Positions 8,382 through 13,625 of a stretch of DNA of 64,000 nt are shown in pieces. Source of the stretch: a virus (taxonomy: Duplodnaviria; Caudoviricetes); IMG/VR virus record IMGVR_UViG_3300021255_002239, positions 638-64,637 of that record, one strand, 5' to 3'. The position numbers and the translations under genes are program-made. Numbering within the stretch: the stretch's first letter is position 1; every line of letters begins with the position of its first letter. The notes beneath the pieces are model-generated. The model saw only the letters and a program-made list of their open reading frames with translations, did not search any database and had not been told where the DNA came from.

Positions 8382-8887
8382 GTTGTACCTCTCTTTATTC
8401 CACCTGCGTTGGTTTTCTTGTATATCTGGATGTACAGTTTCGTTTTATCTGGTCCGTCTGGATGGTCATGAATCCATTCTTCCTCGCACCAGTACCGACC
8501 GTATAGATCTCCATCAACGATAATGTTGATACCACCGGTCATCTTCTTTGATGTGCTTAATACTTCCATCTCTGCCAGATTGATTTTCTTTAGAAGACTA
8601 AGCATCCGCTTTGCGGTTACAATGTCCTGATATGAACGATCAACCTGCACTCTTCTGGTAGATGATGTTTCCAGGATTGTTTTCCTGTTCAGCAACTCTT
8701 CGTGTAATTGCTGTGTTTCTTCCAAGATGCTCTTGCCTATCTGTTTGAAATCATCGTGTATATACGGCAGATTTTCCTTTAGCCAGCCACTGGTGGCGAT
8801 GAGAAAGAACCCACAGCCACCAGAGCATCCTATACAGACTTTTGTCTTGTCATCGTTTATACCGTTGACGTAATCTAGAAGAGTCAT
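8345..8887 (-). CDS. Hypothetical protein
   Basis: Start refined to MTLLDYVNG (ATGA overlap with AAA gene). Confidence 0.6.
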   Translation of the reverse strand: MTLLDYVNGINDDKTKVCIGCSGGCGFFLIATSGWLKENLPYIHDDFKQIGKSILEETQQLHEELLNRKTILETSSTRRVQVDRSYQDIVTAKRMLSLLKKINLAEMEVLSTSKKMTGGINIIVDGDLYGRYWCEEEWIHDHPDGPDKTKLYIQIYKKTNAGGIKRGTTWAQQKRRKSRQ

Positions 8888-10824
8888 GGCGATACAACCA
8901 GCTTCGGATCGTCCGTTACCTTCAAAAGGATTAACTGGCAATCCATCTTCGGAAGGTTGAAATCATTGACTGACTCTGCATTGTCGATAAACAACGGAGC
9001 TGTCACTCCAAGTTTTTTGGAGAAGGTTTTTATGATGTCCATTGCGCATACGATCCTGTGACCAGAATTCATATCCCGATATTTCACACCATTTAGCGAG
9101 ATCTCACACTCTTCCGTAATCCCACCGTTAATCTGCTGATTAAAAAGTGAGAAGTTGGTTACTTCGAAGCATGATGTAATCTTTTTCGACAGAAGCTCCG
9201 ATTTCTGGATGCTGAATTCTTCCAGAGTAATAAGCTTTTGTTCTGTATAAGCGATCTTCTGCCCAACGGTACGCTGTTCTTCTTCCAGTTCCTCTATACG
9301 ATGCGCTATGTCAGCATTCGTTGCTTTGATGGCATCAATCTCGGCTATCTGTTGCCGTACCGCATTCAGTTTTCCTTTAGTGCCGTTAATCTGGAGATTC
9401 ATCTCATCGATCTTCCAGGAGACTTCCTTGCTGGCACTGATTTTCTCCACGATGGATTCCAGTTCCTGATGCAGTGCAATCATCTTTTCATCTGCATTGA
9501 TATCCAAGTCAGGTCCGTATGCTTCATAAGCCTCATTGGCAGACCGCATCTCTGCTTTGGCTTTCTCAGATTCCTCTTCCAGAAGAGCAAGCGATATTTT
9601 TGCTTTTTCAAGATCCTGCTCGATGGAAGTAATGGAATTTTTAATTTCCCAACCTTTTGCTTTATGTGTTTCAAGATCCTGTTTTTTGAGATTTTCAAAG
9701 GCAGACTTTATTCTGGTGATCTCAGACTTCGGAAGCATCTGACCGCACGATTTACATACGGTCTGGCTTTCGTCAAACTCTCGACCGGCAGCTGCTTTGT
9801 ATGCCTGTCCTTCCGAATTAAGGCTTTCTCTCAGGACGGCAATCTTATTTGTATAGATGTCCACCTCTCCCTGGCATCTGGCACGTTTACGGTCGATATC
9901 CGAAAATGCAGTTTTCTTCTCGGAATAGATGCCATAAAGCCTATCCTTCTCGGATCTGCGCTTTGCAGACTCTTCCAAAATCTTGGCATTGATTTCATTC
10001 TGGATTTCAAGCTGTCTCTTGCGCAGTTCTGCCTCGGAAGAATCTGCCTTGAGAGCATCCATCTTCGCTGACAGTTCCGAAAGCTCTGCATCGAGATCCG
10101 CTTCATGATTGCGTAATTCTTCTGCGTCAGGCACTTCTCTGACCTGTTTGGAAACCTCGTCAACTCTTACCGGAAGTTCCTTCTGGAGTTTATTGAGATC
10201 ACGCAGTTCACGTTTTGCCTTTTCGGTGGATTTTTCCACACCGGCATTCAGAACATCTTCCCTGATGATTTCCCATCTGGTCGGATCGCTGTTAAGCACA
10301 TCCTCATCGGTCACATCACCGCAAAACTTTAACAGCAGTGCTTTCTTTTCCTGCCATTTCAGACCGGAGAAGTACCGAAGGTCCGCAATCAGACGGAAGG
10401 TTTCCTCTGGAAGGATCTCAGCGACCTTTGCTTTGTATTCTTTTTCGCTCTGGGGAAATCCGTTGATTTCAAACGCATTCGTGTTTCCTTCGAATGTCGG
10501 AGAAGTACTTCCTCTGCGCTTCGTCCACTTCTGCTTCTGGGTCTTTTTGAGAATGGTTTCTTTCCCATCTACATCCAGGACGGCTTCTACGGAGATCTCA
10601 ACGTTATCAATCTCTTTGCCGTCTGAACCAACAGGACGGATGCCAAAAGATGTGGCTCCTTGACTATCCTTGTTGAACAGGAGCCACAGAAACGCATCCA
10701 GAATACTCGTTTTGCCAGATGCGTTCTGACCGGAGATGGTGGTTACATCTCCAAAAGAAATGTCTGAAGATTTGCATCCTTTGAAGTTACGGATGCTTAA
10801 TGATTTCAAGATAATGTTTGACAT
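8884..10824 (-). CDS. SMC/Rad50(SbcC)-like AAA ATPase
   Basis: Walker A ISGQNASGKTS, long coiled coil with central CKSCGQ zinc hook, MNSGHR signature, LFIDNAE Walker B. Confidence 0.88.
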   Translation of the reverse strand: MSNIILKSLSIRNFKGCKSSDISFGDVTTISGQNASGKTSILDAFLWLLFNKDSQGATSFGIRPVGSDGKEIDNVEISVEAVLDVDGKETILKKTQKQKWTKRRGSTSPTFEGNTNAFEINGFPQSEKEYKAKVAEILPEETFRLIADLRYFSGLKWQEKKALLLKFCGDVTDEDVLNSDPTRWEIIREDVLNAGVEKSTEKAKRELRDLNKLQKELPVRVDEVSKQVREVPDAEELRNHEADLDAELSELSAKMDALKADSSEAELRKRQLEIQNEINAKILEESAKRRSEKDRLYGIYSEKKTAFSDIDRKRARCQGEVDIYTNKIAVLRESLNSEGQAYKAAAGREFDESQTVCKSCGQMLPKSEITRIKSAFENLKKQDLETHKAKGWEIKNSITSIEQDLEKAKISLALLEEESEKAKAEMRSANEAYEAYGPDLDINADEKMIALHQELESIVEKISASKEVSWKIDEMNLQINGTKGKLNAVRQQIAEIDAIKATNADIAHRIEELEEEQRTVGQKIAYTEQKLITLEEFSIQKSELLSKKITSCFEVTNFSLFNQQINGGITEECEISLNGVKYRDMNSGHRIVCAMDIIKTFSKKLGVTAPLFIDNAESVNDFNLPKMDCQLILLKVTDDPKLVVSP

Positions 10825-10925
10825 TATTTTTCTCCTCATTTATACTGAAGATGCCCGTTTTTGTTATATTTGTGGGTTTTCATAGTATGGATGTCTCATG
10901 GATCCCTCTATCTATGGGACATCTT

Positions 10926-11393
10926 TTAATTTGCGATTTTCATAAGGAAATCCCTTATGACTTTCTCGACATCAATGAGGTCCTTGTACTTCTTCTGGAA
11001 CATCTCCAGTTCCTTGTAAGCGTTTTCAAGTACCTTGTTCTTTGTGTCTTCATCCGAAAGAGCAACGGTGATAGGTCTGTACTTGGCCTTATCGTTGCGA
11101 TCATTGACAGAAACAAATGCTCTGACAGGTTCTGTCGGATATTCTTTCGAATCATCAACGGAAACGCATACCAGGTTCCCGATGATCATTTTGCTCTGGT
11201 GCAGACGATATCTCTCGGCTGCTTTGCCATCATCCCATTCATAACAAGAATGAAGTACCGCATCTTCCGGTCTTGAATCGTCCAGAAGAATCTGAGGAGT
11301 TACCTCTCCATAAATCTCATCCAAATGTTCTATGTGTTCTCCTGCTGTCTGTGCCGATACTTTGTATATCGGTGTCTTCCAATCGTAAACCAT
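10926..11393 (-). CDS. Uncharacterised protein directly downstream of the GGY-NN array (candidate accessory factor)
   Basis: Start refined to MVYDWKTP with AGAGAGGAG RBS; the longer ORF start lies inside the repeat. Confidence 0.7.
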   Translation of the reverse strand: MVYDWKTPIYKVSAQTAGEHIEHLDEIYGEVTPQILLDDSRPEDAVLHSCYEWDDGKAAERYRLHQSKMIIGNLVCVSVDDSKEYPTEPVRAFVSVNDRNDKAKYRPITVALSDEDTKNKVLENAYKELEMFQKKYKDLIDVEKVIRDFLMKIAN

Positions 11394-11431
11394 ATTGATT
11401 CTCCTCTCTTTTTGATTGGTGAAAGTTACAT

Positions 11432-11749
11432 GCCTGCCATACCATACCCTGCCCTGCCACACCGCACCTCACCAGACCGCACCGTGCCTTGCCTGCCGCA
11501 CCCCACCTTGCCTAACCTCGCCTCACCTTGCCTCACCTTGCCTTGCCTGCCACGAACAAGCCAAGCCTAACCTTGCCATACCCCACCTCAACTCACCAAA
11601 ACACACCGCTCCACACCTTGCCTGCCTTACCACGCCTCACCGCACCGAACCGCACCATGCCTTGCCATACCAAACCTGACCTGCCACACCCAACCACTAC
11701 CTACCGAACCGTACCGCACCATGCCAAACCAAAACCCACCATACCTGCC
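11432..11749 (-). repeat. GGY-NN pentamer array of five units (59, 54, 75, 59, 64 nt in plus order) delimited by GGCAGG; candidate guide-RNA array
   Basis: Plus strand parses as nn-RCC with 5-nt period; CCTGCC junctions at 11433, 11492, 11546, 11621, 11680, 11744; about 65 triplets, only 6 deviate from GGY. Confidence 0.95.
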
Positions 11750-11753
11750 GTGA

Positions 11754-12422
11754 TTATGCGTTGCTCAGTTCAAGATGATATCTTCCGAAATCTCCATCTT
11801 TCTCCGGCCTCCACTCACCGATACCGCAAACAAGACCACCGGCATCGATGCAGTTCAGAATCTGCTCGATTGTCATATTTCCGTTCTCGTTGTATTCCAT
11901 CAAAAATTCAATACTCCAGTTGCGGAATTCTCCACGATACCGCAGGTCGGCAGAACCGTTTCCGATGCGAACCATATCCTCACGCATGATTGGTGGATCG
12001 CTGATGATCTCTGCCATGTCACCATATGATGTTCTCAGGAAGTAAGAACCACGAAGTCCCATCTGATCTTTGACCCACTTCTGTCTGTACGCTGCACTGT
12101 TGGCAGCCTGTTTGATTCCTGTCAGCGGAAATCCGAATTTTGCACCGTTCTCAATGGCTTTCTGGAACTCTTCTGGTGTAGACTTGGGTTTATCTGTCAG
12201 CCAGTACATGGACTGAACGAAATCATCAAACGGATCCTTGGGGTCTTTTGCTTTGGTCTTCGTTTCGTTCGTCTGATTATCAATCATAATTTTTTTGGCT
12301 TTCTCGCTCCAGGCATGTACGATCAGTGGAGTATCTCCAACAATCTTAAGCGGGATGATTTTCATTCTTCTGGATTTGATCTCTACTAAAGTTGCTGCTG
12401 ACGATTTTGCTGCTTTTGCCAT
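11754..12422 (-). CDS. Stand-alone RAMP/Cas7-like RNA-binding protein (Vipr-like)
   Basis: IPLKIVGDTPLIVH first strand, FPLTGIKQAANSAA helix (cf. Csm3/Cmr4 iPGSSlKG), RYRGEFRNWSIEF strand, C-terminal Gly-rich loop GGLVCGIGEWRPEKDGDFGRY; no cas genes or CRISPR array nearby. Confidence 0.72.
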   Translation of the reverse strand: MAKAAKSSAATLVEIKSRRMKIIPLKIVGDTPLIVHAWSEKAKKIMIDNQTNETKTKAKDPKDPFDDFVQSMYWLTDKPKSTPEEFQKAIENGAKFGFPLTGIKQAANSAAYRQKWVKDQMGLRGSYFLRTSYGDMAEIISDPPIMREDMVRIGNGSADLRYRGEFRNWSIEFLMEYNENGNMTIEQILNCIDAGGLVCGIGEWRPEKDGDFGRYHLELSNA

Positions 12423-12517
12423 TGATTTCCTCTCTTTCTAGTGCTATACTGCACTTGTAGGCATAATTAGTTGTTATGTTTATACTTGCTGTGTCCTGAT
12501 GCTCTCGCCAAAGTCCA

Positions 12518-12802
12518 TCAGGGCATTTTTCTTTCTCCAAACATGAAGTCTCGGTTTCTCTGCTTGCGGTATTCCTCATAATCGATGACCTCTTCTTCCT
12601 GGTCTTCTTTTGTTTCCAATCTCTCATCGTTCCATCGGAAGAAAGTCTCCATCGCAAAAGCGACAGTAATTCCAATAATGACTCGATGAAACCATGTCAC
12701 ATCGATCCAGACACTTGACGCAGCAGCCAAAATGCCGATAACAACATCAGCCACATGCCGTGACCGAATTCTTGTGAGTTTTTCTAGTATTCTTCCCCTC
12801 AT
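12518..12802 (-). CDS. Small membrane protein
   Basis: Two hydrophobic segments, charged C-terminus. Confidence 0.6.
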   Translation of the reverse strand: MRGRILEKLTRIRSRHVADVVIGILAAASSVWIDVTWFHRVIIGITVAFAMETFFRWNDERLETKEDQEEEVIDYEEYRKQRNRDFMFGERKMP

Positions 12803-12820
12803 TTTTCTTCCCCCACATTC

Positions 12821-12964
12821 TTAGTGTTCAAGATAGTATTGGTAGTCCTCAACTATCTCTTTTCCCTGGCAACGAGACGGATCGTAGTTATCGTCCCAGT
12901 CATACTGGTCAATGCCGTACTCTTCCATTAACCAATCAAAAAATGTCATTTTCTCTGCTACCAT
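12821..12964 (-). CDS. Small hypothetical protein
   Basis: Start refined to MVAEKMTFF, overlapping upstream stop. Confidence 0.5.
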   Translation of the reverse strand: MVAEKMTFFDWLMEEYGIDQYDWDDNYDPSRCQGKEIVEDYQYYLEH

Positions 12965-13596: not shown

Positions 13597-13625
13597 AGTT
13601 TAACACTTTAAACCTACTATGTCAA
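13597..13625 (-). promoter_or_regulatory. Lytic promoter (TTGACA-17-TAAACT) overlapped by palindromic operator 13598-13613
   Basis: Minus-strand -35 at 13625-13620, -10 at 13602-13597; GTTTAAcactTTAAAC in the spacer/-10. Confidence 0.7.

What the first reader, a model, noticed from the sequence alone, without database searches (positions are those of the whole stretch)
11432..12422. Stand-alone RAMP/Cas7-like gene plus GGY-NN pentamer array: candidate non-CRISPR RNA-guided system in a phage
Seen: 4 nt after the stop of a 222-aa gene begins a 318-nt array that on the coding strand reads GGY-NN-GGY-NN with strict 5-nt period. The triplet is nearly invariant (6 of about 65 deviate) while the dinucleotide varies freely. 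GGC-A-GGY junctions cut it into five units holding 12, 11, 14, 10 and 11 variable slots. Established: the protein carries hallmarks of RAMP (Cas5/6/7, Csm3/Cmr4) ferredoxin folds: TPLIVH first strand, FPLTGIK helix and C-terminal Gly-rich loop GIGEWRPEKDGDFGRY. Cas7-like proteins polymerise along guide RNA with a fixed nucleotide periodicity. Inference: each protomer binds one GGY and displays one NN, so each unit is a separate programmable guide and GGCAGG marks processing or boundary sites. No cas1/2, nuclease or CRISPR array is present, so the output is more likely binding or repression than cutting. It sits in the early lytic operon after cro/xis, fitting phage-versus-phage or anti-host use. 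This layout matches my recollection of recently reported VIPR (GGY/NN repeat) systems; I cannot verify that here, so treat the name as a lead.
Basis: partly seen in the sequence, partly recalled or inferred. Interest (0 to 1): 0.96.

Follow-up and report, generated by a model that had tools for sequence, protein, structure and literature searches.

The report
Phage VIPR guide-RNA silencing system
This rumen/gut-type temperate phage carries a VIPR system (a CRISPR-like, RNA-guided DNA silencer first described in 2026), so it is a new member of a known family, and two of its five guides appear aimed at rival phages.

Summary

- **Relatives:** 78 of 80 viral relatives carry same-strand arrays, and 75 of 80 also carry a homologue of the downstream 155-aa gene, a likely accessory (vap-like) protein.
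- **Guide 3:** under the published 1-nt-skip rule, its first 10 dinucleotides match exactly, in codon phase, a conserved HK97-type portal motif in at least 119 viral contigs. A reversed-order control gave 0 hits.
- **Guide 1:** it matches a near-identical sibling phage's allele of the gene upstream of vipr at 22/24, against 19/24 for the phage's own allele.
- **Guides 2, 4 and 5:** no convincing target was found.

The kind is already published, and this scan has noted VIPR-like loci in more than 270 other genomes.

The parts
11754..12422 (-). vipr gene: 222-aa single-RRM RAMP (Cas7/Csm3-like) protein that should coat the guide RNA, one protomer per pentamer
11434..11749 (-). staggered vrRNA array: a leader GGCA followed by five GGY-NN units
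   Evidence: There is no Rfam family or hammerhead. The RNA folds no better than shuffles, z +1.16.
11681..11745 (-). unit 1 (12 NN plus terminal GGCAG); the guide matches a sibling phage's orf94 allele
   Evidence: It scores 22/24 at L081:6305-6340(+), in codon phase and in coding sense. Nothing reaches 17/24 under 0- or 2-nt skip. Its own allele scores 19/24.
11622..11681 (-). unit 2 (11 NN plus GGCAG); target not identified
   Evidence: The full pattern gave 0 hits in viral contigs. The 18-base core gave 10 metagenome hits of mixed genes, about the number I would roughly expect by chance.
11547..11622 (-). unit 3 (13 NN, a degenerate 6-nt step, then GGCAG); the guide matches a conserved portal-gene motif
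   Evidence: The pattern of NN1-10 (20 bases) has at least 119 exact hits in IMG/VR. All 80 fetched hits are in frame at about codon 250 with peptide KVAVLEEGMK[Y/F], and score 21-23/26 overall. Six of 6 ORFs tested are PF04860 Phage_portal. A reversed-order control gave 0 hits.
11493..11547 (-). unit 4 (10 NN plus GGCAG); purine-rich and low in complexity, target not identified
   Evidence: The full pattern gave 0 hits in viral contigs. Local best scores do not exceed controls.
11434..11493 (-). unit 5 (11 NN plus GGCAG); only a chance-level candidate target
   Evidence: The 18-base core gave 1 hit, 19/22 and in frame, in a DUF1351 gene of a rumen phage contig (L127). I estimate roughly 1-2 hits by chance.
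10926..11393 (-). 155-aa accessory (vap-like) gene of unknown fold
   Evidence: A homologue lies downstream of vipr on the same strand in 75 of 80 IMG/VR loci, either after the array or between vipr and the array. It is also adjacent to Vipr homologues in Gordonia and Mycobacterium phages. phrog_15946 matches at E 1.4e-17. There is no Pfam or PDB match. Conserved motif: H48, W53, D55, A58, R63, Q66.
13597..13625 (-). probable early rightward promoter (TTGACA-17-TAAACT with TG) that would drive cro, hth117, orf94, vipr, the array and orf155
   Evidence: This is a consensus scan only. No other minus-strand promoter-like site lies between it and the array. Inferred.
12704..12739 (-). near-self site of guide 1 inside the phage's own orf94 (codons 22-33)
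   Evidence: 19/24 = 79%, just under the published 80% cut-off, and in codon phase. Eight of 1000 order-shuffled guides reach 19.

Best explanation
This is a VIPR (Viral Interference Programmable Repeat) system of the staggered-array kind, carried in the early lytic operon of a complete 64.6-kb temperate phage of gut or rumen Clostridia. The operon transcript contains five tail-less vrRNAs. Vipr protomers bind one per pentamer, sequester each GGY through the conserved His, Arg and G-loop Glu-Trp-Arg residues, and present the NN pairs. The filament pairs with one strand of double-stranded DNA while skipping every third target base, and so blocks transcription. Guide 3 reads codon positions 1-2 of a conserved HK97-type portal motif, so synonymous change cannot evade it. 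It should shut down the late operon of many unrelated co-resident phages, while this phage's own portal is not detectably similar. Guide 1 is aimed at a sibling phage's allele of the small membrane-protein gene just upstream of that sibling's own vipr. The phage's own allele differs enough to fall below the published cut-off. The 155-aa gene is the clade's accessory protein. Shown here: homology, fold, array architecture, co-occurrence and target matches. Inferred: transcription, processing at GGCAG|G, DNA binding and silencing.
Against: No expression, binding or silencing data exist for this locus or for any staggered array; the preprint states that only the ribozyme-interspersed and single-vrRNA architectures were confirmed by sRNA-seq. 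Three of five guides have no convincing target. Guide 3's last three NN do not match the portal, at about 2 of 6 bases. Guides from relatives show no enrichment on this window or on the portal loci over controls. The homology to SUSP1 Vipr found by HMMER covers mainly the C-terminal 75 residues. The function of orf155 is unknown, so target destruction cannot be excluded.
Confidence: 0.88

Rival explanations
1. It is a VIPR-like complex that destroys its target rather than merely silencing it. In this reading orf155, possibly with the adjacent SbcC-like ATPase, acts as or recruits a nuclease, as proposed for VIPR types III-V.
For: orf155 is strictly linked to vipr across Clostridia and Actinobacteria phages and has no recognisable DNA-binding domain. 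A 651-aa SbcC-like AAA ATPase follows it directly.
Against: No nuclease motif or family was detected in orf155. The ATPase homologue is present in only 6 of 87 related loci, so it is not part of the module. VIPR-less siblings keep a distant orf155 homologue, so the protein can function without Vipr.
Confidence: 0.12
2. The complex targets RNA, as type III Csm3/Cmr4 backbones do, rather than double-stranded DNA.
For: The closest solved folds are Csm3 subunits of RNA-targeting type III, type VII and Cas7-11 effectors.
Against: Both natural target matches have the same sense as the coding strand, so the guides are identical to the mRNAs rather than complementary to them. The homologous SUSP1 system binds dsDNA.
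Confidence: 0.04
3. Guide 1 is autoregulatory. It binds the phage's own orf94 (19/24) to throttle transcription into vipr and the array, rather than attacking a sibling phage.
For: The own-genome match is in codon phase, lies directly upstream of vipr, and is reached by only 8 of 1000 shuffled guides.
Against: The sibling allele matches better at 22/24. 79% is below the 80% cut-off at which the preprint found no self-targeting. The follow-up preprint reports self-match scores systematically lower than matches to rivals.
Confidence: 0.06
4. The array is an inert G-rich simple repeat or a recombination or G-quadruplex element, and its adjacency to a RAMP-like gene is incidental.
For: The array is 49% G and would be prone to G-quadruplex formation. 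No transcription data exist.
Against: Strand-specific co-occurrence with the gene holds in 78 of 80 loci from 39% to 77% protein identity. A conserved GGCAG terminator is present. The protein retains its GGY-reading residues. Two units match foreign phage genes exactly in the published code.
Confidence: 0.02

Closest known systems
Type II VIPR of Escherichia phage SUSP1 and the Pseudomonas fulva prophage (bioRxiv 10.64898/2026.04.26.720920, .720927 and 2026.10.15.759431; PDB 36PP)
   Same: A homologous Vipr protein with the same GGY-reading residues. GGY-NN pentamer guides of 10-14 repeats. Phage-encoded, with no cas genes. Natural targets in rival phages obey the 1-nt-skip rule, with the skipped base at the codon wobble position. 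Self-match is lower than rival match.
   Different: Here there is no ~40-nt structured or pseudoknot 3' tail: units abut through GGCA|GG and the RNA folds no better than shuffles. The accessory gene is a different family, since orf155 homologues are absent from the 77 Escherichia phage records that hold Vipr homologues. The host is a Clostridia-type bacterium rather than a proteobacterium. One target is a structural (portal) gene.
'Staggered vrRNA arrays' described in fig. S18 of the VIPR preprint
   Same: Individual vrRNAs follow one another with a 1-nt overlap, so that the end of one marks the start of the next. This is exactly the GGCAG|G junction seen here.
   Different: The preprint did not confirm this architecture experimentally and, in the text available to me, gives neither its boundary motif nor its type number. 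Here the constant GGCAG terminal pentamer is documented across 154 of 223 units, and also in cellular relatives from several phyla.
Csm3/Cmr4 (Cas7) backbone subunits of type III CRISPR-Cas effectors
   Different: Period of 5 nt rather than 6. No crRNA repeat handle, no Cas10, Cas5, Cas6 or Cas1 and no CRISPR array. Sequence identity is only 10-17%.
Unannotated Vipr-orf155 pairs in Gordonia phages (ODay, Pipp, UmaThurman) and Mycobacterium phages (Quico, Florinda and others)
   Same: The same two-gene pair in the same order, at 31-36% (Vipr) and 24-33% (orf155) identity.
   Different: The hosts are actinobacterial. All are annotated as hypothetical proteins. I did not inspect their arrays.

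Membership tests
VIPR system | Sequence homology to an experimentally characterised Vipr | tested here: met
   PDB 36pp_D SUSP1 Vipr at E 1.4e-9 (single sequence) and 1.3e-10 (profile). The alignment covers mainly residues 145-219, plus the first strand.
VIPR system | Residues that read G1, G2 and Y3 (SUSP1 H17, R138, D177, W178, R179, C173) | tested here: met
   They align to H36, R163, E203 (D to E), W204, R205 and C199. Five of the six are invariant in 41 homologues; C199 is conserved with SUSP1 but not invariant across them.
VIPR system | Adjacent tandem GGY-NN (YNNGG) repeats of at least 4 units, with conserved GGY and hypervariable NN | tested here: met
   63 repeats in five units. Relatives carry arrays with the same GGY but unrelated NN, and a sibling whose flanking genes are 97-100% identical (vipr itself 85%) diverges from the third repeat on.
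VIPR system | A minimal locus without CRISPR array or cas genes, usually with one accessory (vap) gene, in a viral context | tested here: met
   No Cas1 in the genome and no long tandem array. The neighbours are cro-like, cI-like, integrase and ATPase genes. The genome is a complete virus record with terminal repeats. orf155 is conserved next to vipr.
VIPR system | Natural targets at >= 80% NN match under the 1-nt-skip rule, with no self-target at >= 80% | tested here: met
   Guide 1 scores 22/24 in L081. Guide 3 scores 21-23/26 in at least 119 portal genes. The best self match is 19/24 = 79%. Three guides have no target.
VIPR system | vrRNAs are expressed, co-purify with Vipr and direct dsDNA binding or silencing | not testable with these tools
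   This needs sRNA-seq, RIP and reporter assays.
Type II VIPR (SUSP1 / P. fulva clade) | Each vrRNA ends in a conserved ~40-nt structured 3' tail (a pseudoknot in SUSP1) | tested here: not met
   Units abut directly through GGCA|GG. The array RNA folds no better than shuffles, z +1.16. No Rfam hit.
Type II VIPR (SUSP1 / P. fulva clade) | vap1-type accessory gene | tested here: inconclusive
   orf155 homologues were found only in Mycobacterium, Gordonia and one cyanophage record, and in none of the Escherichia records with Vipr homologues. I did not compare orf155 with vap1 directly.
VIPR types I-VII (type number) | Placement in the published Vipr phylogeny together with vap family and array architecture | not testable with these tools
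   The type definitions are in figures and data files that are not held as text.
CRISPR-Cas class 1 | Repeat-spacer array plus cas operon (Cas1/2, Cas5/6, large subunit) | tested here: not met
   No tandem repeat of score >= 80 in 64 kb. No Cas1. Neighbouring genes are phage regulators.

The most novel reading that the evidence does not exclude
In this widespread clade the guides are self-delimiting. A constant GGCAG pentamer followed by a 1-nt register slip would be the only boundary signal. It would break the Vipr filament and define vrRNA ends without any structured tail, ribozyme or Cas6-like handle. At least some guides would be built against protein-level conserved motifs (here the portal KVAVLEEGMKY motif), giving one guide reach over hundreds of divergent rival phages.
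Probability: 0.4. Interest if true: 0.5.

Novelty: new member of a known kind. Interest (0 to 1): 0.35.

Why it matters
VIPR is a very recent addition to the RNA-guided systems and has been tested experimentally only in two proteobacterial type II examples. This locus is a compact Clostridia-phage example of the untested staggered, tail-less array. It comes with a clear boundary motif and a defined accessory-gene family shared with cultivable Gordonia and Mycobacterium phages. It also offers two concrete natural targets: a conserved portal motif in many gut or rumen phages, and a sibling phage's divergent allele. These give ready-made substrates for testing how tail-less vrRNAs are matured and whether the 1-nt-skip code holds outside type II. 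It does not change the known picture.

Tried and rejected
- **Single-sequence AF2 fold:** useless at pLDDT 34. I redid it with a 41-sequence alignment.
- **Exact IMG/VR scans:** full patterns for guides 1, 2 and 4, and a relaxed guide 1 pattern, gave 0 hits.
- **Guide 1 in related virus records:** 0 hits with up to 3 mismatches in 50 whole records.
- **Guide 2 core in JGI metagenomes:** 10 hits in mixed genes and frames. The best is 21/22 in a NeuB gene of a bacterial contig. I judged this to be about chance level by a rough estimate.
- **Guide 5 core:** one 19/22 hit in a DUF1351 gene, again about what I would expect by chance.
- **Guide 3 near-self site in hth117:** 18/26 and in frame. I tested it by collecting alleles of that gene; none matched better, so I rejected it.
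- **Guides of 80 relatives against this window, and 163 guides against the portal loci:** no excess over 0-nt skip, 2-nt skip or shuffled controls.
- **Other window guides against the 695 kb of portal-bearing fragments:** nothing above controls.
- **orf155:** no informative Pfam or PDB hit; PHROGs gives only an unnamed family. The protein atlas returned only unnamed viral clusters and one labelled DUF4494.
- **VIPR type number:** could not be read from the papers' text.

Full report
**Observation.** Read on the minus strand, the 222-aa ORF 11754-12422 ends in TAA. Four bases later a G-rich tract runs from 11749 to 11434. It parses into pentamers of GGY plus two free bases.
- Over 58 full pentamers, position 1 is G in 58, position 2 is G in 53 and position 3 is C or T in 56. 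Positions 4 and 5 carry 1.74 and 1.88 bits of entropy.
- GGY followed by GGY five bases later occurs 46 times, against 2.3 +/- 1.5 (maximum 10) in 2000 shuffles. Base identity peaks at lags 5 and 10.
- The register slips by one base at each GGCA|GG junction.
- A strict parser finds no other such unit on either strand of the 64-kb window.
- All three frames of the array strand contain stops. The RNA folds no better than shuffles, z +1.16. No Rfam family, including hammerhead ribozymes, matches.

**What the protein is.** Pfam has no match. PHROGs places it in an unnamed family, phrog_4652, at E 3.5e-29.
- Against PDB sequences it hits one meaningful entry, 36pp 'SUSP1 Vipr protein', at E 1.4e-9. 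A profile of 41 homologues hits it at 1.3e-10.
- A single-sequence fold failed. With the alignment the model reaches pLDDT 87.5.
- Foldseek returns 51 hits at E <= 1e-3, and all the listed top hits are Cas7-type subunits (Csm3, Cmr, type VII Cas7, Cas7-11).
- The cryo-EM preprint names the SUSP1 residues that read the repeat: H17 and D177 for G1, R138 and W178 for G2, and R179 and C173 for Y3. In the HMMER alignment these fall on H36, E203, R163, W204, R205 and C199. All of these except C199 are invariant in the 41-sequence alignment.

**The known system.** VIPR systems were described in 2026: bioRxiv 10.64898/2026.04.26.720920, structures in .720927, and phage-satellite competition in 2026.10.15.759431.
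- Vipr polymerises on a vrRNA of alternating GGY and NN.
- The NN pairs base-pair with dsDNA while every third target base is skipped.
- Binding silences transcription.
- Natural targets are rival phages and satellites.
- The preprint mentions 'staggered arrays' whose vrRNAs overlap by 1 nt, and says that the other two alternative architectures, not this one, were confirmed by sRNA-seq.

The GGCA|GG junction here is exactly such a 1-nt overlap.

**Relatives.** The family is large, with 6195 database proteins at E <= 1e-3.
- In 80 IMG/VR loci at 39-77% identity, 78 carry GGY-NN arrays on the gene's strand next to the gene, against 1 of 80 on the opposite strand.
- Of 223 units parsed, 154 end in GGCAG. 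Arrays start with GGCA right after the stop codon, as here.
- Most of the 28 cellular relatives carry similar arrays, typically GGCAG-terminated. They come from Clostridia MAGs and, more distantly, Alphaproteobacteria and other phyla.
- NN content is unrelated between loci.
- A sibling phage contig, L081, is 97-100% identical to the window in the lysogeny genes and 85% in vipr. Its array differs from the third repeat on.

**The third gene.** The 155-aa gene 10926-11393 has a homologue downstream of vipr in 75 of 80 loci, either after the array or between vipr and the array.
- It is also adjacent to Vipr homologues in Gordonia and Mycobacterium phages, where both are annotated as hypothetical.
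- It has no Pfam or PDB match. A conserved H..W.D..A...R..Q core is visible.
- I read it as this clade's vap-type accessory protein, of unknown activity.
- VIPR-less siblings (L082-L087) lack vipr and the array but keep a 32%-identical homologue. The protein is therefore not strictly dependent on Vipr.
- The SbcC-like ATPase further downstream is present in only 6 of 87 related loci and is not part of the module.

**Targets.** I converted each unit to the published query (NN, one free base, NN, and so on) and searched for matches.

- All 80 fetched hits lie in frame, with NN at codon positions 1-2, near codon 250 of 420-485-aa ORFs. The peptide is KVAVLEEGMK followed by Y or F.
- Six of 6 ORFs tested are HK97-type portal proteins, PF04860 at E about 1e-130.
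- The eleventh dinucleotide, which the search did not require, also matches in 59 of 80 hits. The last two dinucleotides do not. Totals are 21-23 of 26.
- The same ten dinucleotides in reversed order gave no hit.
- The window encodes no detectable homologue of that portal.
- The closest annotated phages carrying it infect Oscillospiraceae, Ruminococcus, Acutalibacteraceae and Clostridium. This is the host class of the nearest cellular Vipr relatives.

*Guide 1.* Its best site in its own genome scores 19/24, in codon phase, inside orf94, the small membrane-protein gene just upstream of vipr. Eight of 1000 order-shuffled guides reach that score.
- Among the four database homologues of orf94, one allele predicted a better match.
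- Its DNA in sibling L081 matches at 22/24, in phase. Nothing reaches 17/24 under 0- or 2-nt skip.
- orf94 is a divergence island between the two phages, at 67% nt identity between flanks of 97-100%.

Both targets are in coding sense, so the guides cannot pair with the mRNAs. This fits DNA targeting.

Guides 2, 4 and 5 gave nothing above chance.

**Context.** The record is a complete 64.6-kb virus genome with terminal repeats. The module sits after a cro-like gene, an HTH gene and orf94, downstream of a divergent promoter pair facing a cI-like repressor, with an integrase beyond. Expression early in lytic growth is therefore likely, but it is inferred.

**Mechanism proposed.**
- The early transcript carries the five units.
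- Vipr assembles one protomer per pentamer. The filament stops where the register slips at GGCAG|G, and the exposed junction is trimmed.
- Each RNP scans dsDNA and locks on sites that match its NN string with one skipped base. This blocks RNA polymerase in the rival's late operon (portal) or in a sibling's early operon (orf94, upstream of its vipr).

Homology, architecture and the target matches are shown here. Processing, binding and silencing are inferred from the SUSP1 work.

**Verdict.** This is a genuine VIPR locus and a new member of a published kind. It is not type II, because it has no structured tail and a different accessory family. This scan has already flagged VIPR-like loci in more than 270 other genomes. 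Earlier follow-ups there also reported guides that spell conserved protein motifs, so the finding is not new to the scan. Its residual value lies in three things: the documented GGCAG boundary, the orf155 accessory family shared with cultivable actinophages, and the two concrete targets.

Noticed in passing
L082-L087 (ENA rumen metagenome contigs) versus window 10859-12962: Sibling phages are about 95% identical in the lysogeny module but lack vipr and the array. They go from the orf94 homologue straight to a 150-aa gene that is a 32%-identical homologue of orf155. No GGY-NN unit is present on these contigs.
   Followed up: partly
window 12518-12802 (-), orf94: This small two-TM-like protein gene is a sharp divergence island between sibling phages: 67% nt identity while cro and hth117 are 100% and the adjacent intergenic region is 99%. 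It has only four database homologues and no family match.
   Followed up: partly
L107:10145-10204 versus L134:2944: A guide from a Christensenella MAG VIPR array matches a site downstream of the portal gene in one of the portal-bearing viral contigs at 20/22 under the 1-nt skip. It is the only hit at >= 90% among 163 guides; the controls had none.
   Followed up: no
L089:1079-1111 (+): Guide 2 matches a NeuB (sialic-acid synthase) gene of a bacterial metagenome contig at 21/22, in frame. The number of core hits was about what I would roughly expect by chance, so I do not claim it.
   Followed up: partly
window 8884-10839 (-): A 651-aa SbcC-like AAA ATPase (AAA_15/AAA_23, phrog_77) lies directly after the VIPR module. 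It is present in only a few related loci.
   Followed up: partly
window 11394-11411 and 12423-12440 (-): vipr and orf155 have very similar purine-rich ribosome-binding regions (AGAGAGGA..AATCAAT before the ATG).
   Followed up: no
Gordonia phages ODay, Ecliptus, Pipp, UmaThurman; Mycobacterium phages Quico, Florinda and others: Cultivable actinobacteriophages carry the same Vipr-orf155 gene pair, annotated as hypothetical proteins. In the Gordonia phages there is a gap of about 280-390 nt between the two genes that could hold an array.
   Followed up: no
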